Origin: a virus
Taxonomy: Duplodnaviria > Heunggongvirae > Uroviricota > Caudoviricetes
Strand: one strand, 5' to 3'
Virus record (IMG/VR): IMGVR_UViG_2734482585_000012
Length of the DNA: 40,561 nt
Part shown: positions 652 to 39,009 of the stretch, in pieces
Position numbering within the stretch: the first letter of the stretch is position 1
How the letters are laid out: the number at the start of each line of letters is the position of its first letter
Made by a program: the position numbers and the translations under genes
Notes under the pieces: generated by a model
What the model saw: only the letters and a program-made list of their open reading frames with translations
Databases searched by the model: none
What the model was told of the DNA's origin: nothing

Positions 652-914
652 NNNNNNNNNNNNNNNNNNNNNNNNNNNNNNNNNNNNNNNNNNNNNNNNN
701 NNNNNNNNNNNNNNNNNNNNNNNNNNNNNNNNNNNNNNNNNNNNNNNNNNNNNNNNNNNNNNNNNNNNNNNNNNNNNNNNNNNNNNNNNNNNNNNNNNNN
801 NNNNNNNNNNNNNNNNNNNNNNNNNNNNNNNNNNNNNNNNNNNNNNNNNNNNNNNNNNNNNNNNNNNNNNNNNNNNNNNNNNNNNNNNNNNNNNNNNNNN
901 NNNNNNNNNNNNNN
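652..914. other. Assembly gap (263 N)
   Basis: Run of n characters in the sequence. Confidence 1.
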
Positions 915-20892: not shown

Positions 20893-21142
20893 NNNNNNNN
20901 NNNNNNNNNNNNNNNNNNNNNNNNNNNNNNNNNNNNNNNNNNNNNNNNNNNNNNNNNNNNNNNNNNNNNNNNNNNNNNNNNNNNNNNNNNNNNNNNNNNN
21001 NNNNNNNNNNNNNNNNNNNNNNNNNNNNNNNNNNNNNNNNNNNNNNNNNNNNNNNNNNNNNNNNNNNNNNNNNNNNNNNNNNNNNNNNNNNNNNNNNNNN
21101 NNNNNNNNNNNNNNNNNNNNNNNNNNNNNNNNNNNNNNNNNN
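20893..21142. other. Assembly gap (250 N)
   Basis: Run of n characters. Confidence 1.
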
Positions 21143-22380: not shown

Positions 22381-22971
22381 TTTTCCTCACATATGTCATA
22401 TAGTAAAGGATTATATATACCGTTGTTTTGGACGCTCAAACAGCGAATCAGATCAAATAAAACGCACATTTGTTAACATTTACACAAAGTCTGCGTGGGA
22501 TATTCTGAAAGAATATCCATAATGTGGAGAGAATCTATTGAAGTGCATGGTGCCGGGTGCCTCCCGGTGAACAAAATGTTCGTGATACCTGTCGGCGACA
22601 GAAAAGGTTAATGGTATCACCCCACCGCACAGGGGGATTCACCATGCAGGAGTTTTCTTAGCAAACTCACTGCGCGCCCGGCAACTCCCAACCACATAAA
22701 ATGCGGAGTTTGTGGCATTTATGCATATAACTCGCAGGAATTATCTTAAAAAACTGATGTCGATCCGGATTAAAAAGAAGCAGGTCATCATCAGATGACT
22801 GGAAAAAAGGAAAACAAAAAATACTCATCATACAGTTTTGATTGCAGGGATGAGCCTGCTATGCACAATATGCAGAATATAAGCAAGATAAAAATATGCA
22901 GGCATATTATTTCGGATCTTGTTATTAACACAACCTTTTTAATAATCATTTGGCATACAATAAACCAGCCC

Positions 22972-23967: not shown

Positions 23968-24254
23968 AAATGACCTTTCTTTCTCCAGATTTCTTGTGTG
24001 CGAAAAACCCCTTCAGCATGCATCAGGCGCAATTCTTCTTTGGTGTAATCGCTGGTTTTTACCCGCCCGTCGATTAGATCGTGGCATGAGCTACAGGCTA
24101 TCGCCGCCTGCATATCATGTGGTTTTGTCGCTGTTCCGCACGTCCCCGCCAGCCTGTAATGCGCCAGCACAGAGGTTTCGGGATTGTGATTGCAGTAGCC
24201 AGGGATTCTGATCTGGCACATCTGGCCTTTAGCCGCTTTACGTAAATTCACCAT
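23964..24254 (-). CDS. DUF1364-family Cys-rich nin-region protein (YbcO-like)
   Basis: 96 aa; CQIRIPGYCNHNPETSVLAHYRL…CSSCHD resembles DLP12 YbcO as I recall it. Confidence 0.55.
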   Translation of the reverse strand: MVNLRKAAKGQMCQIRIPGYCNHNPETSVLAHYRLAGTCGTATKPHDMQAAIACSSCHDLIDGRVKTSDYTKEELRLMHAEGVFRTQEIWRKKGHL

Positions 24255-24853
24255 TACGCAAACTCCAGTAGTTGTGCGGCCACATTTTCAACTTCCTCCT
24301 GAGAGGAGAATTTACGGAACAGAATCCAGTTCCACAGCACATTCAGTACAGATTTATAAACCTGCTGAAACTCGACTTCGTCCATATTCGCAAAAGCGAT
24401 GGATTTTGCCCGACGCCCACGGCTACCGTCCGGATAAATATGCTCGGTGTAAAATCCGGCCTGAATGGTTACCCACTCGCGGAAAGCCTCAAACGACTTT
24501 AGCAACGCCGTATCCCGGGTTCTACGAGTCGCAACGGTGTTAAGGTATTGCTCTGCGGCATCACTCAGGGCTGGCGTGTGTTCCCGACCAACTGATTCGC
24601 ACAGGTAATCAACGAAACCAGACAGCAGTTCTCGTTCGCGAGGCGTGATCGCCCCACCGACCGGAGTCCAGTAATCGAATCCCAGTTGCAGGAGTTTGAA
24701 AAAACGCTTGTGGAATGCGTAGTTACGCACACGCTTAAAGTCTGCGTGTATCCACTCACCTATTTTGATTTGATGCAGAAAATCGCAACTCTCCGGCGTC
24801 GCCGGGAGAAGTAAACCAGAAGAGGTTTGTTTGACCAGTTGTATATGCGCCAT
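24254..24853 (-). CDS. Conserved nin-region phage protein, function unknown
   Basis: 199-aa ORF translationally coupled to the downstream gene; no motif recognised. Confidence 0.5.
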   Translation of the reverse strand: MAHIQLVKQTSSGLLLPATPESCDFLHQIKIGEWIHADFKRVRNYAFHKRFFKLLQLGFDYWTPVGGAITPRERELLSGFVDYLCESVGREHTPALSDAAEQYLNTVATRRTRDTALLKSFEAFREWVTIQAGFYTEHIYPDGSRGRRAKSIAFANMDEVEFQQVYKSVLNVLWNWILFRKFSSQEEVENVAAQLLEFA

Positions 24854-25133
24854 TTCTCAATCTCTCGATGGCGCAGCGCAGCAGATGCCAGTTGTTCAGG
24901 CTGACGAATAAAGTATAAATAAACTGGCTATGGTGTAAAGCCCCACATAGCATGAACAAACACTACATATCAAATAGCTGGTACAAGGATAGAAATACGA
25001 CACTTATTATTAAAAACGATTAGATAAATTACATTTTAATGTTATGCAAAAGTTCTTTTTTATCATAACATTTCAATAAAAGCATTACAGATGCAATCAT
25101 CCCGTCATCATCAATTATTTAAGGTGGTTAAAC

Positions 25134-25220
25134 ATGGAAAATAACAAGTTCGCACATCTCGCTCCTTTTTTATCCGTAATCCTTTTCGCTTGTTGTTTTA
25201 TATGGGCATTATTTTTATAA
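25134..25220 (+). CDS. Small hydrophobic peptide (28 aa), candidate membrane peptide
   Basis: Strong SD AAGGTGG 6 nt before ATG; reads MENNKFAHLAPFLSVILFACCFIWALFL; AT-rich moron context; below ORF-track size cutoff. Confidence 0.3.
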   Translation: MENNKFAHLAPFLSVILFACCFIWALFL

Positions 25221-25611
25221 AGTAGCCACATGATAAGTTGCTGGAATCATATTTCCCACTCAAGTCATTAACATTTGATAAGATATATCTAAAAGGACGC
25301 CTTTACATTATTTATGCGTATATAATTTATTTATATACACAGTAAAGGTATCCTGGGAAAATATTTATCGTTAAAAAATACATCATAAATAATTAAGCTG
25401 AAATTTCAGAACACAACTAATACACACAATAAGGTTCAGTAACAGTAATCTATGTGGACTACATCGAGATTTTTTGATTAAACTTTAATAACTTATTCCT
25501 AACACACAGAATGCATAAACTAAAAGTAAAACAAATAGTTATACGAAAAACAACCATATTTATTCTATCTTCTCCTCTAATCAACATATCAATTATGTGT
25601 TTCATAACAGC

Positions 25612-25654
25612 TTGACATAACCCTCCAAAAGATGCATTTTTAATGCATGTTTTG
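25612..25654 (+). promoter_or_regulatory. Promoter (-35 TTGACA) with NsrR-box-like inverted repeat upstream of the yeaR-like gene
   Basis: TTGACA at 25612-25617, then AAAGATGCATTTTTAATGCATGTTTT; close to the NsrR consensus as I recall it (about AAGATGCATTT-N-AAATGCATCTT). Confidence 0.5.
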
Positions 25655-25666
25655 GAGGAGGTGGTT

Positions 25667-26005
25667 ATGACACACAAGAGAATTCCTAAAGATTGGGTAA
25701 TCAAACGCTCAACTCCGTTCTTCACAAAAGAGAACGTACCTTCAGCGTTATTAACACATCATAATACAGCAGCAGGTGTTTTTGGGCAGTTGTGCGTAAT
25801 GGAAGGCACTGTAACATATTATGGTTTTACTGATGAGAATGCTACTGAACCGGAGATAAAAGTAGTCATTAATGCTGGCGCTTTTGCAACAAGCCCACCA
25901 CAATACTGGCACCGTGTTGAACTAAGCGATGATGCTCAGTTTAATATTAACTTTTGGGTCGCTCCAGACTTTTCGGGCGAAAAAGTCTATAGCACCAAAA
26001 AATAG
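25667..26005 (+). CDS. YeaR-like DUF1971 protein (cupin-like; NsrR-regulon paralog)
   Basis: 112 aa from MTHKRIPKDWVIKRSTPFF… with SD GGAGGAGG; resembles E. coli YeaR along its length as I recall it. Confidence 0.75.
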   Translation: MTHKRIPKDWVIKRSTPFFTKENVPSALLTHHNTAAGVFGQLCVMEGTVTYYGFTDENATEPEIKVVINAGAFATSPPQYWHRVELSDDAQFNINFWVAPDFSGEKVYSTKK

Positions 26006-26034
26006 ATGATCATATTAAAAATGCTTTAACAGTC

Positions 26035-26073
26035 AGACCCGGCAGGGCTATCCCCGACGGGTCTCATTTTTGT
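26035..26073 (+). terminator. Intrinsic terminator after the yeaR-like gene
   Basis: agacccg…cgggtct 7-bp stem followed by CATTTTTGT. Confidence 0.5.
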
Positions 26074-26625
26074 AAATATATTGGTTCTACATTGACAGGA
26101 GACTTCAACCATAAGAAGTAATCTGAATACTTGAGCAATAAATTTACTTAAGATTAATGAGCGCACCTTGCCGGACAAAGATAAACCAAGGTAACACCTT
26201 TTTTCTAGCCAGTATGTAATCAATCAGAAAGCCGCTCCATAAGAACAACAGCAAGACAATAAATTGCCATTACAGCCGCAATAGCCAGCGCACATTTGAG
26301 AACCAGCACGACAACCCCCTGTATTAGACGCACACCAGTCCTGATAAATATGAGGCTGTCTCGTCAGTGATTCAATACAACTATTGGGTATAGTTTCTGT
26401 GATTTTATTCTGTAGAAATGGAACACAACAACCAGTCACCACCAGCACTTCCTTAAATGCTCTAAGTCAGAAACAAGCCAACATTTTAGTCCGCTTTGAG
26501 CGATCTGCAGACATTGCTAGCAGCCTTCTGTGTGAATTCTCAGGGAGCAGGTCGGCATAGCATCACGTTGAGGCTCTTACCCTACTTGTTCACACCAACC
26601 CTAACTCCACAGACTGATTCATAAA

Positions 26626-27627
26626 TTAGTAATCTGCGTGTTTCGCACTTTTCAGAAATGCTTTCATATTTTCATTAGGTCGCTCAATTTCGAAGTTACT
26701 TCCATATAACTCTTGTAATTTTGGCCATAACTTACTTAATAACCCTCTCCTGCGATAAAATGGATGTATCCAAACGGTAGATAGGTACGGAGAATTTGCA
26801 TTTGAATTGTTTATTGTGACCAGCCCAACTAAACATTGTCGATAACCACTATTATCCATTGATTGTATTTCTTCGACGAATGGATACGCGATTACATCAG
26901 TCCAACCATGATCGGTTGTATCCCATTGCATTCCGTCATGACATTCCTTCGACTGATAGCGGCGTAAAGCTACACACGCGAGCTTTTGCCAATCTGGAGA
27001 ATTAATTGTGATCTCTTCATCGTATGACGCGCCTATTGGAGCGGGTATTGGTCTGATTAATCCAGCATGGCATTCATCATAGAACTTCATGTTTCCCTCA
27101 GAAACGTTGTGTACGTTGGGTTGCTCCATGTGTGCGCCATTCAAAAATAGCTCTGATAGTAGTGTATCTACACTGTAATCTTTATTGATTATTGTCGGCT
27201 TAGAGTTTTTCTTATTAAGGCCGCGAGTAACGATTTTTTGATCAATGTTAACAACATGGAATAATCCGTCGGGGAGGCTAGCGAACCACGATGGGGCATC
27301 GGACCAGAATAGCATGCCTTTTGTACTTCTTAAGAGTTTAATTAAGTTAATACAAGCTTCTTCACTAGTCTTGCCGTTGATGCGAAGTATGTTAGGACTA
27401 AAGTAATATTCATCCATATCAGGGAATGCAGCTTCGCAAAACTCCTGTACATAATTTAGCACCTGGATTCTACAGAGATCATCATAGCTGGTAATAACTA
27501 AGGGGGTATCTTCATTACTATTATGATTATCAATAATGCAATCTATAGCGAGACTTACTGCTTTGCGTATCACTTCAGTTGAATCTAACGACTCTAAAAA
27601 TTTTGTCTTTCGTGTGCGAATATCCAT
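26626..27627 (-). CDS. Hypothetical protein B of unrecognised two-gene cassette (possible C-terminal GNAT-like region)
   Basis: 333-aa ORF, AT-rich, 15 bp downstream of protein A; C-terminus …CLVGLVTI…WIHPFYRRRGLLSKLWPKLQELYG loosely resembles an acetyltransferase motif A. Confidence 0.6.
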   Translation of the reverse strand: MDIRTRKTKFLESLDSTEVIRKAVSLAIDCIIDNHNSNEDTPLVITSYDDLCRIQVLNYVQEFCEAAFPDMDEYYFSPNILRINGKTSEEACINLIKLLRSTKGMLFWSDAPSWFASLPDGLFHVVNIDQKIVTRGLNKKNSKPTIINKDYSVDTLLSELFLNGAHMEQPNVHNVSEGNMKFYDECHAGLIRPIPAPIGASYDEEITINSPDWQKLACVALRRYQSKECHDGMQWDTTDHGWTDVIAYPFVEEIQSMDNSGYRQCLVGLVTINNSNANSPYLSTVWIHPFYRRRGLLSKLWPKLQELYGSNFEIERPNENMKAFLKSAKHADY

Positions 27628-27642
27628 GTATGACCTGCGCTA

Positions 27643-28665
27643 TTAAAATTCATGAATGAACGGTTTGTCATCTGGTTGCAAAATGGTGGTTTTATTCGTT
27701 GCTACATTTAAACTGTTGTAGAGCATAATTGCCAGGTTCGATGCATTTTCAATCAGCGTTTCAAGATCCTGGTCTGTAATCACTACGAGGTTCCCTTCTT
27801 TATCCTTTCCACCACGATGCACTAAGTGATTTCGATTGAGGGTTGCCAATTCAATAGCTTCTATCGGACAGTCTTTTTGTACTTTTATATCGAATGTAGC
27901 TTCATAGCGGTCGATTACCTTTTTAGTGCTATGCCAGCTTGCACTGATCAAGTGTTCCTTGATTGACCTGATTAGCTCTCCCCTAATTTTCTCGATGGGT
28001 TCACCCTTGAAAGGCAACGCAGCAATATCTTTGCTTACTTTAAATTCAGTCTTACCTTTTTCTATACAATTGGCTATGTAGACATCATCTTTCTCTATAG
28101 AATTAATGAATAGCTCAACATAAAGCGTTTCCAAAGCTGTAATAACATTCGTGTAGAGCAAACTAAGCAAGTGGTTTTTTTGCTGTTGTTCAGTTTTATC
28201 TTTTGCAAGTTTTTTTATTTTATCGATATTATCAATGAATTTTAAATACGGATTACCGGAAGACGTTACAGCGTCGTAGATATCATCATCGTACCAATCA
28301 TCTATATTATTTGAGTTTCCAGACCAGTCAAAACATTGTGTTTGTAATTCATCTACTAATTCCTCAATATACTCAGATTTAACATATTGACCGAAGATGG
28401 ATTGTAGTTCTTCGCTCGCATCATACGGCCCGCCATATATGTAAGCATAGCCACCTTCTCTACTTTCATACGGACAAGCATTTGCCGGATCTTCAAAGTT
28501 TTCAAAGAACCAGTTTTTCATTACTTCGAGTTGATCTTTTTTGCTTATGTATTTTAAAGATTTTAGTGGAACTTTCTTTCCATTAACCTCGAAAACAATT
28601 TTCACGATGTAACGCTCCCTTGTATCAATTGCGCAACTATTATACCACAGCGAAATACAGGGCAT
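27643..28665 (-). CDS. Hypothetical protein A of unrecognised two-gene cassette (candidate HEPN-like C-terminal motif)
   Basis: 340 aa from MPCISLWYN… with strong SD AAGGAGG; C-terminal …LATLNRNHLVHRGGKDKEGN… fits Rx4-6H with polar residue after R; AT-rich. Confidence 0.6.
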   Translation of the reverse strand: MPCISLWYNSCAIDTRERYIVKIVFEVNGKKVPLKSLKYISKKDQLEVMKNWFFENFEDPANACPYESREGGYAYIYGGPYDASEELQSIFGQYVKSEYIEELVDELQTQCFDWSGNSNNIDDWYDDDIYDAVTSSGNPYLKFIDNIDKIKKLAKDKTEQQQKNHLLSLLYTNVITALETLYVELFINSIEKDDVYIANCIEKGKTEFKVSKDIAALPFKGEPIEKIRGELIRSIKEHLISASWHSTKKVIDRYEATFDIKVQKDCPIEAIELATLNRNHLVHRGGKDKEGNLVVITDQDLETLIENASNLAIMLYNSLNVATNKTTILQPDDKPFIHEF

Positions 28666-28803
28666 AACCTGCCTCCTTAAACTAACATACCATGAGCCAG
28701 CAATGTCCGCTATTGGCACAAAGCGGACAACCACGCTAGCTCTCCCCTGTGCCAGAAAAATGTCAATTTACATATGAACTAATGCTCTTTGATCTAGTAA
28801 CGT

Positions 28804-38820: not shown

Positions 38821-39009
38821 ATGTATAAAATTACCGCCACTATTGAAAAGGAAGGTGGCACTCCTACTAACTGGACAAGATATTCAAAATCTAAACTAAC
38901 GAAATCAGAATGCGAAAAAATGCTCTCAGGTAAAAAAGAAGCAGGCGTTTCCAGAGAGCAGAAAGTAAAACTGATAAATTTTAATTGCGAGAAACTTCAG
39001 TCCTCGTGA
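38821..39009 (+). CDS. ydaC: YdaC-like small protein
   Basis: 62 aa from MYKITATIEKEGG… with SD GGAGGTG; within ORF 38749..39009. Confidence 0.5.
   Translation: MYKITATIEKEGGTPTNWTRYSKSKLTKSECEKMLSGKKEAGVSREQKVKLINFNCEKLQSS

What the first reader, a model, noticed from the sequence alone, without database searches (positions are those of the whole stretch)
25612..26073. yeaR-like moron that retains an NsrR-type operator (nitric-oxide-responsive cargo)
A plus-strand gene convergent with the surrounding phage genes encodes a 112-aa YeaR-like DUF1971 protein with SD GGAGGAGG and its own terminator. Upstream, a -35 TTGACA is followed by the inverted repeat AAAGATGCATTTTTAATGCATGTTTT, close to the NsrR box found at hmp/ytfE/yeaR promoters. 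This suggests the prophage carries a host-regulated, nitrosative-stress-inducible gene.
Basis: partly seen in the sequence, partly recalled or inferred. Interest (0 to 1): 0.55.

Follow-up and report, generated by a model that had tools for sequence, protein, structure and literature searches.

The report
Prophage gene with NsrR nitric-oxide switch
A Rac-like E. coli prophage carries a small stress gene, the counterpart of Salmonella's nitric-oxide-resistance gene STM1808, whose promoter is overlapped by a near-perfect binding site for the host's nitric-oxide sensor NsrR, so the phage most likely gives its host an extra NO-inducible defence gene; this is a new example of a known kind of regulation, not a new mechanism.

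Summary
The gene at 25667-26005 (+) encodes a 112-aa DUF1971 protein (Pfam E 2.3e-26). A perfect -35 (TTGACA) sits 11 nt upstream of AAGATGCATTTTTAATGCATGTT (25629-25651). With a weight matrix built from 26 published E. coli NsrR sites, this box scores 26.6 bits. That is second only to ytfE and above hmp and yeaR. The next best site in the window scores 12.1, and none of 2 million random 23-mers reaches it.

One refinement: the protein is only 41% identical to YeaR. It is 79-82% identical to the STM1808 / V. fischeri '3DL3' lineage. In 51 of 52 Enterobacteriaceae species the chromosomal ortholog has the same NsrR box at the same distance from a -35 hexamer, although synonymous sites are saturated. 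The operator therefore travelled with the gene and is under selection. E. coli K-12 lacks that ortholog; 466 of 5,426 complete E. coli genomes have it, on Rac-like prophages.

Best explanation: a moron repressed by host NsrR and de-repressed by NO. No binding or expression data exist.

Two further points. The window's operator allele is rare; about 63% of copies have a weakened left half-site. In this allele the palindrome extends to 17-3-17 and covers part of the ribosome-binding site, which remains unexplained.

The parts
25612..25617 (+). -35 hexamer TTGACA (perfect consensus)
   Evidence: Read. A -35-like hexamer lies 11-12 nt upstream of the NsrR box in 50 of 50 distinct ortholog promoters.
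25635..25640 (+). Predicted -10 hexamer CATTTT (3 of 6 matches, with A2 and T6), 17-nt spacer. It occupies positions 7-12 of the NsrR box.
   Evidence: The same position reads TATTTT, TATATT or CATATT in orthologs. The generic scan did not flag it. The transcription start, inferred at about 25647, has not been measured.
25629..25651 (.). NsrR operator, 11-1-11 inverted repeat AAGATGCATTT-T-TAATGCATGTT
   Evidence: Scores 26.6 bits (27.8 with uniform background). It ranks second only to ytfE and is unique in the window. It is conserved in 51 of 52 enterobacterial orthologs.
25622..25658 (.). Extended 17-3-17 palindrome CCTCCAAAAGATGCATT/AATGCATGTTTTGGAGG. The right arm covers the first GGAGG of the ribosome-binding site.
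   Evidence: As RNA it folds at -22.9 kcal/mol, z -4.85. The arms co-vary among E. coli alleles. Its function is unexplained.
25654..25661 (+). Shine-Dalgarno GGAGGAGG, 5-8 nt upstream of the ATG
25667..26005 (+). CDS, 112 aa, DUF1971 protein of the STM1808/3DL3 lineage (stop codon included)
   Evidence: Pfam E 2.3e-26; PDB 3DL3 E 3.5e-59; 79-82% identity to enterobacterial orthologs; His32 and His82 invariant; RefSeq annotates the same start.
26035..26071 (+). Terminator-like hairpin (26035-26064) plus T-run (26067-26071)
   Evidence: Folds at -17.7 kcal/mol, z -2.4. A diverged version of the hairpin is kept in the phage 666R9 allele although the flanks differ. The generic scan did not flag it.
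25222..25611 (.). AT-rich upstream spacer (26-31% GC), found only in prophages that carry the DUF1971 gene. The approximate left limit of the cargo cassette is 25221.
   Evidence: Phage vB_EcoS-683R6 shares 24254-25221 and then carries different cargo. GC profile.

Best explanation
This is a phage moron, a self-contained cargo cassette with its own promoter, operator, gene and terminator. It sits in opposite orientation inside the early-right/nin region of a Rac-like lambdoid prophage integrated at ttcA.

The gene encodes the E. coli-prophage version of the STM1808-type DUF1971 protein. Its sigma-70 promoter (TTGACA, 17 nt, CATTTT) has its -10 hexamer and predicted start site buried in a near-consensus 11-1-11 NsrR operator.

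In an unstressed lysogen the host's iron-sulfur repressor NsrR should occupy the operator and block RNA polymerase. Nitric oxide, from host iNOS or from nitrate/nitrite respiration, nitrosylates the NsrR cluster and releases the repressor. A short-leader mRNA of about 20 nt with a strong ribosome-binding site is then made.

By analogy with STM1808, the protein would help the lysogen grow under nitrosative stress.

Shown here:
- the sequence elements;
- the PWM rank of the box;
- family membership of the protein;
- conservation of operator and promoter geometry across species;
- the cargo status of the gene.

Inferred: NsrR binding, NO induction, the transcription start and the phenotype.
For: 1. 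Operator strength. The box scores 26.6 bits, above all published E. coli sites except ytfE. The next best site in the window scores 12.1, and 0 of 2,000,000 random 23-mers reach it.

2. Phylogenetic footprint. Of 52 Enterobacteriaceae species loci, 51 have a box of 20.7-30.4 bits lying 15-27 nt upstream of the ATG. In the same loci only 5 of 568,534 background positions reach 20 bits. Synonymous sites between the prophage gene and these orthologs are saturated (pS 0.70-0.93).

3. Promoter geometry. A -35-like hexamer lies 11-12 nt upstream of the box in 50 of 50 distinct promoters, which places the -10 in the left half-site.

4. Protein. It is Pfam DUF1971, 77-82% identical to its orthologs, and closest in the PDB to 3DL3 (E 3.5e-59). 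The Salmonella ortholog lies directly after nhaB-dsbB, the position of STM1808. STM1808 is listed as an NsrR-regulon gene with a role in virulence (PMC7527575). dN/dS between two prophage alleles is 0.04.

5. NsrR is an NO-sensitive [Fe-S] repressor (PMC5320621). Rodionov et al. predicted tehB-homolog genes as NsrR targets in enterobacteria and Photobacterium (PMC1274295).

6. Cargo status. The gene is antiparallel to its neighbours, lies in a low-GC island, is absent from the same slot in phages 683R6 and Rac-SA53, and is present in the phage genomes vB_EcoS-666R9, vB_EcoS-673R7 and vB_EcoS-613R10.

7. The core palindrome is unique in the window, so it is not one of a set of phage-repressor operators.
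Against: - There is no experimental datum for this locus: no transcription start, no ChIP, no expression data.
- The -10 is weak (3 of 6 matches), and the generic promoter scan did not call it.
- The operator is the most variable stretch of the locus among E. coli copies. About 63% of copies carry AACACGCATTT in the left half (20.7 bits or less), and some fall to 15.7. Tight NsrR control may therefore not hold, or may not be selected, in most lysogens.
- The AT-rich surroundings (26-31% GC) could be silenced by H-NS whatever NsrR does.
- The biochemical role of DUF1971 is unknown.
- The STM1808 phenotype and zinc-binding data come from Karlinsey et al. 2012, which I could not open. I cite it from memory and through PMC7527575.
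Confidence: 0.75

Rival explanations
1. The long palindrome works mainly at the RNA level. A CCUCC stretch pairs with the Shine-Dalgarno GGAGG, so transcripts that enter from upstream are translationally silent. The NsrR resemblance would then be secondary, or only one of two layers of control.
For: The 17-3-17 hairpin folds at -22.9 kcal/mol, z -4.85, with 0 of 200 shuffles as stable. Among E. coli alleles the outer arms change together (CCTCC..GGAGG, CCTCA..TGAGG, CCCTCA..TGGGAGG), and every allele keeps a hairpin of -10 to -27 kcal/mol that includes CCUC:GAGG. Citrobacter orthologs show 10 of 10 extra pairs outside the box, with two-sided covariation between species.
Against: - The conserved -35 and spacing put the start site at about 25647, inside the right arm. 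Transcripts from the gene's own promoter therefore lack the left arm, and the resulting leader is unstructured (-5.5 kcal/mol, z +0.96).
- Kluyvera, Leclercia and Klebsiella orthologs keep the box but have no extension (0-4 of 10 pairs against 2.6 expected).
- Where the extension exists, it does not reach the ribosome-binding site in Citrobacter or Kluyvera.
- Inside the box, specific bases are conserved, not just pairing. The AAGATG/CATGTT mismatch is kept in many species.
- No plus-strand gene or promoter lies upstream to supply read-through transcripts.
- Clustered symmetric changes are also what quasi-palindrome template-switch mutation produces without any function (established knowledge).
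Confidence: 0.12
2. The operator is an inherited relic that no longer controls anything. The gene would be constitutively expressed, or kept silent by H-NS on the AT-rich island, and the box is decaying in the prophage.
For: Substitutions among E. coli alleles are concentrated in the operator. There are 5-9 changes within about 32 bp, against about 4% divergence upstream and 9% at synonymous sites. The commonest allele class has a degraded left half-site, and a T-to-A change creates a consensus TATAAT 4 nt downstream of the old -10. The upstream region is 26-31% GC.
Against: - The window allele scores higher than hmp, hcp and yeaR.
- Even the degraded alleles keep an intact right half-site (12.1 bits) and a total of 20.7 bits, comparable with hmp at 20.3. 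Single half-sites are reported to function (PMC5320621).
- About 37% of copies, or nearly all of them, keep 25.7-28.6 bits.
- The coding sequence is under purifying selection.
Confidence: 0.1
3. The palindrome is the operator of a different protein: a phage-encoded repressor, or another Rrf2-family or palindrome-binding host factor such as IscR.
For: Palindromes between -35 and the ATG are generic repressor sites. The extension beyond 23 bp is not explained by the known NsrR footprint.
Against: - The core is unique in the 40.5-kb prophage. No other copy has fewer than 3 mismatches, and the total of 6 matches compares with 4.7 expected. Phage repressor operators normally come in sets.
- The same box is conserved in front of chromosomal, non-phage orthologs in about 50 species.
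- It matches the NsrR matrix position by position.
- From my own knowledge, it does not resemble the published IscR type 1 or type 2 motifs. I did not test this with a matrix.
Confidence: 0.03

Closest known systems
STM1808 of Salmonella enterica serovar Typhimurium, an NsrR-regulon DUF1971 protein (Karlinsey et al. 2012, Mol Microbiol 85:1179; cited from memory and through PMC7527575)
   Same: The proteins belong to the same lineage: 79% identity and 112-113 aa, with His32 and His82 conserved. The promoter plan is also the same: a -35 hexamer, 11-12 nt, then an NsrR box containing the -10, then a short leader.
   Different: STM1808 is a chromosomal gene fixed after nhaB-dsbB in Salmonella, Citrobacter and Klebsiella. 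The gene studied here is carried by a Rac-like prophage in a species whose chromosome has umuDC-hlyE at that position. The box lies 15 nt from the ATG here, against 25-27 nt there. Synonymous sites are saturated, so this is not a recent copy of any sampled ortholog.
yeaR-yoaG operon of E. coli K-12 (repressed by NsrR, activated by NarL; Lin, Bledsoe and Stewart 2007, cited through PMC5320621)
   Same: The product is a DUF1971 protein (PDB 3BB6, E 1.6e-24). An NsrR 11-1-11 box lies in the promoter.
   Different: Identity is only 41%. The yeaR box (AAATGGTATTTAAAATGCAAATT, 22.2 bits) lies about 66 nt upstream of the ATG and is followed by a long leader. No yoaG partner is present here, and no NarL heptamers were seen by eye. 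The two promoters are not alignable.
Vibrio (Aliivibrio) fischeri 'tellurite resistance protein B', PDB 3DL3
   Same: It is the closest solved structure. The alignment covers the full length at E 3.5e-59, with about 77-80% identity.
   Different: The Vibrio, Aliivibrio and Shewanella orthologs have no E. coli-type NsrR box upstream (scores 12.2 or below). Two Photobacterium loci do have one (28.5 and 18.3 bits).
N-terminal DUF1971 domain of Haemophilus influenzae TehB (PDB 3M70)
   Same: It shares the same domain (E 5.4e-11; NCBIfam TehB 49 bits).
   Different: The score is far below the TehB equivalog cut-off of 303 bits, and the methyltransferase domain is missing. The 'TehB family protein' label in some RefSeq records is therefore a misnomer for this gene.
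Host-regulated prophage morons, for example lambda bor/lom, Gifsy-2 sodCI and Fur-controlled stx (own knowledge)
   Same: These are also autonomous promoter-gene-terminator cassettes inside a prophage, expressed in the lysogen under a host regulator.
   Different: The regulator here would be NsrR and the signal nitric oxide. I found no paper describing such a case. DUF1971 genes occur in only 3 of 50,697 phage records.

Membership tests
NsrR operator (E. coli NsrR regulon site) | [quoted passage not shown] | tested here: met
   The box scores 26.6 bits (27.8 with uniform background). The left half scores 15.6, equal to ytfE, and the right half 12.1. It ranks second among 26 published sites.
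NsrR operator (E. coli NsrR regulon site) | Position compatible with repression, overlapping the core promoter or start site | tested here: met
   The box spans from 11 nt downstream of the -35 to 15 nt upstream of the ATG, and the -10 occupies box positions 7-12. The same geometry holds in 50 of 50 ortholog promoters. No transcription start has been measured, and the generic scan did not call the promoter.
NsrR operator (E. coli NsrR regulon site) | Conservation in front of orthologous genes in species that have NsrR | tested here: met
   51 of 52 Enterobacteriaceae loci score 20.7 bits or more, while synonymous sites are saturated.
NsrR operator (E. coli NsrR regulon site) | Binding by holo-NsrR and de-repression by NO or in an nsrR mutant | not testable with these tools
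   This needs EMSA or ChIP plus reporter or RNA-seq experiments.
DUF1971 / STM1808-type protein | Full-length match to Pfam PF09313 above the gathering score | tested here: met
   E 2.3e-26, 92 bits against a cut-off of 23.1, profile positions 1-80 of 80.
DUF1971 / STM1808-type protein | Closer to the STM1808/3DL3 lineage than to YeaR or TehB | tested here: met
   79-82% identity to enterobacterial STM1808-type proteins against 41% to YeaR. PDB matches: 3DL3 E 3.5e-59, 3BB6 E 1.6e-24, 3M70 E 5.4e-11. The Salmonella ortholog lies after nhaB-dsbB. Equating that gene with locus tag STM1808 rests on my knowledge of the LT2 gene numbering.
DUF1971 / STM1808-type protein | His32 and His82, reported as zinc ligands needed for NO resistance (Karlinsey 2012, from memory) | tested here: met
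   Both residues are invariant in an 18-sequence alignment that includes the window protein. Metal binding itself cannot be tested here.
Phage moron | Own promoter and own terminator, transcribed independently of the phage operons | tested here: inconclusive
   The consensus -35, conserved geometry and a hairpin with a T-run are present, and the gene is antiparallel to the early-right operon. Both signals are predictions, and the generic scans missed both.
Phage moron | Dispensable insertion: related phages lack it at the same position | tested here: met
   Phage 683R6 shares DUF1367 and 24254-25221 and then carries an S8 peptidase and an FtsH-like gene. Rac-SA53 shares only 24254-24918. The region is a low-GC island.
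Phage moron | Expression in the lysogen with a benefit to the host | not testable with these tools
   No transcriptome or phenotype data are available.
yeaR-yoaG operon | Orthology to YeaR, a yoaG partner gene, and the yeaR promoter layout | tested here: not met
   Identity is 41%. No second gene precedes the terminator. The box-to-ATG distance is 15 nt against about 66 nt, and the promoters are not alignable.

The most novel reading that the evidence does not exclude
The near-consensus NsrR site may be more than a switch for one gene. NsrR is scarce enough that multicopy operators de-repress its regulon; repressor titration has been used as an assay for NsrR targets (PMC5320621). When the prophage replicates after induction, tens to hundreds of copies of one of the strongest NsrR sites in the cell could soak up NsrR. 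That would switch on the host's whole NO-defence regulon (hmp, ytfE, hcp) during lytic growth in an NO-rich, inflamed gut. Operator strength would then be under selection, which could explain why this stretch is the most variable part of the locus. The extended, co-varying palindrome could be part of the same story or a second, RNA-level layer.
Probability: 0.1. Interest if true: 0.6.

Novelty: new member of a known kind. Interest (0 to 1): 0.4.

Why it matters
Nitric oxide is a main weapon of the inflamed gut, the urinary tract and macrophages. In Salmonella the chromosomal counterpart of this gene contributes to NO resistance and systemic infection.

E. coli K-12 has no such gene on its chromosome. 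About 8.6% of complete E. coli genomes (466 of 5,426), and Shigella, carry one on a Rac-like temperate phage, together with the host-readable NO switch.

If this is confirmed, it would be a clear case of a phage transferring a ready-wired member of a host stress regulon, promoter and operator included. Lysogeny would then give an NO-inducible fitness trait without any new regulator.

The natural operator alleles range from 15.7 to 28.6 bits. They offer a ready-made series for studying how NsrR affinity tunes expression.

The mechanism itself is standard: a repressor site overlapping the -10.

Tried and rejected
- **Chance match.** Rejected by the PWM statistics.
- **Descent from chromosomal yeaR.** Rejected. 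Identity is 41% and the promoter layout differs.
- **Phage-repressor operator.** Rejected. The core palindrome is unique in the window and is conserved at non-phage loci.
- **Known RNA family over the palindrome or the flanking non-coding DNA.** None found. The only hit was a meaningless mir-616 match at E 0.12.
- **Fur co-regulation.** The Kluyvera/Leclercia-group orthologs have a Fur-box-like element (13-17 of 19 matches) 64-66 nt upstream of the ATG. The window has none (11 of 19, equal to the shuffle mean), so the prophage copy did not keep it.
- **NarL or FNR sites.** None seen by eye upstream of the -35. I did not test this with matrices.
- **Anti-phage defence role.** No PADLOC hit for the DUF1971 protein or its two right-hand neighbours.
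- **Recent donor species.** None identified. Synonymous sites are saturated against every sampled ortholog, and the gene's 41% GC fits none of the closest enterobacterial relatives.
- **Literature.** I found no paper linking NsrR to a prophage DUF1971 gene. Karlinsey 2012 and Lin 2007 are not held in the library.
- **Generic promoter and terminator scans.** They found nothing on the plus strand here. The promoter and terminator calls rest on comparative geometry and on folding.

Full report

Yes. The sequence shows these elements:
- TTGACA at 25612-25617.
- The inverted repeat within 25627-25652.
- GGAGGAGG at 25654-25661.
- An ATG at 25667, opening a 112-codon frame whose stop ends at 26005.
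- A GC-rich hairpin at 26035-26064 followed by TTTTT at 26067-26071. It folds at -17.7 kcal/mol, z -2.4.

The protein matches Pfam DUF1971 over the whole profile (E 2.3e-26, 92 bits against a cut-off of 23.1). RefSeq annotates the same start in identical E. coli genomes.

The generic scans flagged neither the promoter nor the terminator. The -10 matches only 3 of 6, and the terminator stem has an internal loop.

**2. Is the NsrR resemblance more than chance?**

I built an 11-1-11 palindromic weight matrix from the 26 distinct NsrR sites in Table 4 of the CFT073 ChIP-seq study (PMC5320621).

- The 23-mer AAGATGCATTTTTAATGCATGTT (25629-25651) is not in the training set. It scores 26.6 bits.
- The training sites score 30.1 (ytfE), 23.8 (hcp), 23.6 (tehA), 22.2 (yeaR) and 19.4 (hmp).
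- The next best site in the 40.5-kb window scores 12.1.
- None of 2,000,000 random 23-mers reaches 26.6, whether drawn with window composition (maximum 17.4) or with AT-rich intergenic composition (maximum 22.6).
- Restricting the training set to the 19 sites with ChIP or other experimental support gives the same picture (25.5 bits).
- The left half-site is identical to that of ytfE (15.6 bits). The right half-site scores 12.1.
- The core palindrome is unique in the window, so it is not one of a set of phage-repressor operators.

**3. What is the gene?**

It is only 41% identical to K-12 YeaR. Its close relatives (73-82% identity) are 111-114-aa proteins found in:
- Kluyvera, Leclercia, Citrobacter, Klebsiella, Raoultella and Salmonella;
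- Vibrio, Aliivibrio, Photobacterium and Shewanella.

The closest solved structure is V. fischeri 3DL3 (E 3.5e-59). YeaR (3BB6) scores E 1.6e-24, and the DUF1971 domain of H. influenzae TehB (3M70) scores E 5.4e-11.

In Salmonella the ortholog lies immediately after nhaB-dsbB. By my knowledge of the LT2 numbering (STM1806, STM1807), that makes it STM1808. STM1808 is listed as an NsrR-regulon gene with a role in virulence (PMC7527575, citing Karlinsey et al. 2012). I could not open the primary paper. From memory, it reports STM1808 as a zinc protein whose His32 and His82 are needed for NO resistance. Both histidines are invariant in my alignment.

E. coli K-12 has umuDC-hlyE after dsbB and no such gene.

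**4. Did the operator come with the gene?**

I fetched 80 species loci and scanned the 250 nt upstream of each ortholog.

- Of the 52 Enterobacteriaceae loci, 51 have a box of 20.7-30.4 bits lying 15-27 nt from the ATG. The exception, a Leclercia, has a 1-nt deletion in the spacer.
- In the same loci, only 5 of 568,534 background positions reach 20 bits.
- Of the 28 loci from Vibrionaceae, Shewanella and Oceanospirillales, only two Photobacterium loci have a box (28.5 and 18.3 bits). This agrees with an earlier prediction for a tehB homolog in Photobacterium and in enterobacteria (PMC1274295).

A -35-like hexamer (TTTACA, TTGACG, TTGCCT and similar) lies 11-12 nt upstream of the box in 50 of 50 distinct promoters. 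Box positions 7-12 (TATTTT, TATATT or CATATT) therefore serve as the -10. The window fits this plan exactly: TTGACA, then 11 nt, then the box, with CATTTT as the -10 after a 17-nt spacer.

Synonymous sites between the prophage gene and all orthologs are saturated (pS 0.70-0.93). Retention of the 23-bp box and its spacing is therefore a real phylogenetic footprint.

By contrast, the yeaR promoter has its box about 66 nt from the ATG, followed by a long leader, and cannot be aligned with this one. 'Retains an NsrR operator' is thus correct relative to the STM1808 lineage, not relative to yeaR.

**5. Is it phage cargo?**

The window is a complete-looking Rac-like prophage at ttcA. It runs from intR, xisR, ralR/RalA, recET, kilR and sieB, through the immunity region, ydaTUV, the Q-like gene, lysis genes and trkG, to terminase, capsid and tail genes.

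- The early-right operon runs on the minus strand. The DUF1971 gene is the only plus-strand gene in its neighbourhood.
- It sits in a low-GC island at about 24850-28700. The gene is 41% GC and the upstream spacer 31%.
- Phage vB_EcoS-683R6 shares the DUF1367 gene and the spacer up to 25221, and then carries an S8 peptidase and an FtsH-like gene instead. Rac-SA53 shares only up to 24918.
- The gene is present in 466 of 5,426 complete E. coli genomes.
- It is present in three phage genomes from UK E. coli. These are the only 3 of 50,697 phage records with any DUF1971 homolog.
- PHROGs holds it as family 34268, of unknown function.
- Unlike the Kluyvera-group orthologs, the prophage copy has neither the Fur-box-like element upstream of the -35 nor the small downstream gene.

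**6. Most likely mechanism**

NsrR is an NO-sensitive [Fe-S] repressor (PMC5320621). A dimer on 25629-25651 would cover the -10 and the predicted start at about 25647. NO would release it, giving an mRNA with a leader of about 20 nt that is unstructured (-5.5 kcal/mol, z +0.96) and carries a strong ribosome-binding site.

The sequence anatomy, the PWM rank and the comparative conservation are shown here. NsrR binding, NO induction, the start site and the benefit to the lysogen are inferred. I put this explanation at 0.75.

**7. Complications**

(a) The operator is the most variable part of the locus among E. coli copies.
- The window allele is rare: 5 genomes are identical over 85 nt and 17 more are near-identical. 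One of these near-identical alleles makes the 17-3-17 palindrome perfect (28.6 bits).
- About 104 genomes carry AAGGTGCATTTATAATGCATGTT (26.6 bits).
- About 288 genomes carry AACACGCATTTATAATGCATGTT or close variants (20.7 bits, and down to 15.7).
- The window-type box is the one most like the chromosomal orthologs. K. intermedia differs at a single base from the perfect-palindrome allele. I therefore infer that it is ancestral.
- In the derived alleles, a T-to-A change destroys T6 of the old -10 and creates TATAAT 4 nt downstream. This may have remodelled the promoter.

(b) The palindrome extends beyond the 23-bp box, and the arms co-vary among alleles. Citrobacter, Yokenella and Raoultella planticola orthologs also have 8-10 extra pairs, with two-sided changes between species. 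Kluyvera and Klebsiella do not.

As RNA the window's hairpin (-22.9 kcal/mol, z -4.85) would mask the first GGAGG. However, the predicted start lies inside the right arm, and no upstream plus-strand transcription is evident.

Quasi-palindrome template switching, which is mutational and needs no function, is the simplest account. I leave the point unexplained.

**8. Novelty and score**

The regulator, the operator type, the protein family and the moron concept are all known. STM1808 is an established NsrR target.

What appears to be undescribed is that a temperate phage carries this regulon member, operator included, into E. coli, whose chromosome lacks it. The natural operator allele series also appears to be new.

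I rate this a new member of a known kind, with interest 0.4.

Noticed in passing
window 25622-25658; L027, L030, L033, L050 (Citrobacter), L061, L074: In some clades the NsrR box sits inside a much longer palindrome, with compensatory changes on both arms between species and between E. coli alleles. Other clades (Kluyvera, Klebsiella) keep only the 23-bp box. Template-switch mutation, extra protein contacts and an RNA hairpin all remain possible.
   Followed up: partly
window 26205-26515, with ORF 26220-26333 (-): This unannotated element is 91.6% identical to phages Tritos, Evi and mEp460. In Tritos it lies about 200 nt from hokD. It contains a 37-aa hydrophobic ORF (MRLIQGVVVLVLKCALAIAAVMAIYCLAVVLMERLSD) with no Pfam or NCBIfam hit, possibly a type I toxin-like peptide.
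   Followed up: partly
window 26626-27627 (-) and 27643-28734 (-): These are two cargo genes of unknown function (PHROG 16994 and 17908). They have sub-threshold GNAT (E 9e-4) and HEPN_RES_NTD1 (E 1.9e-4) hits and no PADLOC hit. In related phages the same slot holds an S8 peptidase with an FtsH-like gene, or Hok with KilA-N. The slot is a variable cargo site and possibly a defence hot spot.
   Followed up: partly
L005-L026 (Kluyvera, Leclercia, Pseudescherichia, Silvania, Buttiauxella), 64-66 nt upstream of the ATG: A Fur-box-like element (GATAATGAGATTTATTATC, 13-17 of 19 matches) sits just upstream of the -35 in this clade. This suggests dual Fur and NsrR control of the chromosomal orthologs. 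The element is absent from the prophage copy and from the Citrobacter/Klebsiella/Salmonella clade. In the same clade a small conserved gene follows the DUF1971 gene.
   Followed up: partly
window 25639-25644 in other E. coli alleles (L084, L085, L002, L004): Most E. coli copies carry a T-to-A change in the operator spacer. It creates a perfect TATAAT 21 nt from the -35 and removes T6 of the ancestral -10, which may have remodelled the promoter.
   Followed up: no
window 38827-39005 (-) and 22491-22677 (-): Rfam matches above the gathering score: RalA antitoxin sRNA (225 bits), next to ralR, and STnc100 (86.6 bits), between the Q-like gene and the lysis genes.
   Followed up: no
window 652-914 and 20893-21142: Two runs of N (masked sequence). 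By alignment to NCTC10444, the second falls in the rrrD/essD lysis region.
   Followed up: no
window 24854-25666: This 813-nt spacer between DUF1367 and the DUF1971 gene is unusually long and AT-rich (31% GC overall, 26% at 25250-25549). It has no convincing ORF and no Rfam hit, and is a candidate H-NS target.
   Followed up: no
E. coli genomes: Some RefSeq records name this 112-aa protein 'TehB family protein'. It scores only 49 bits against the TehB equivalog (cut-off 303) and lacks the methyltransferase domain, so the name is misleading. Two of the 471 matching places are on records labelled plasmid.
   Followed up: no
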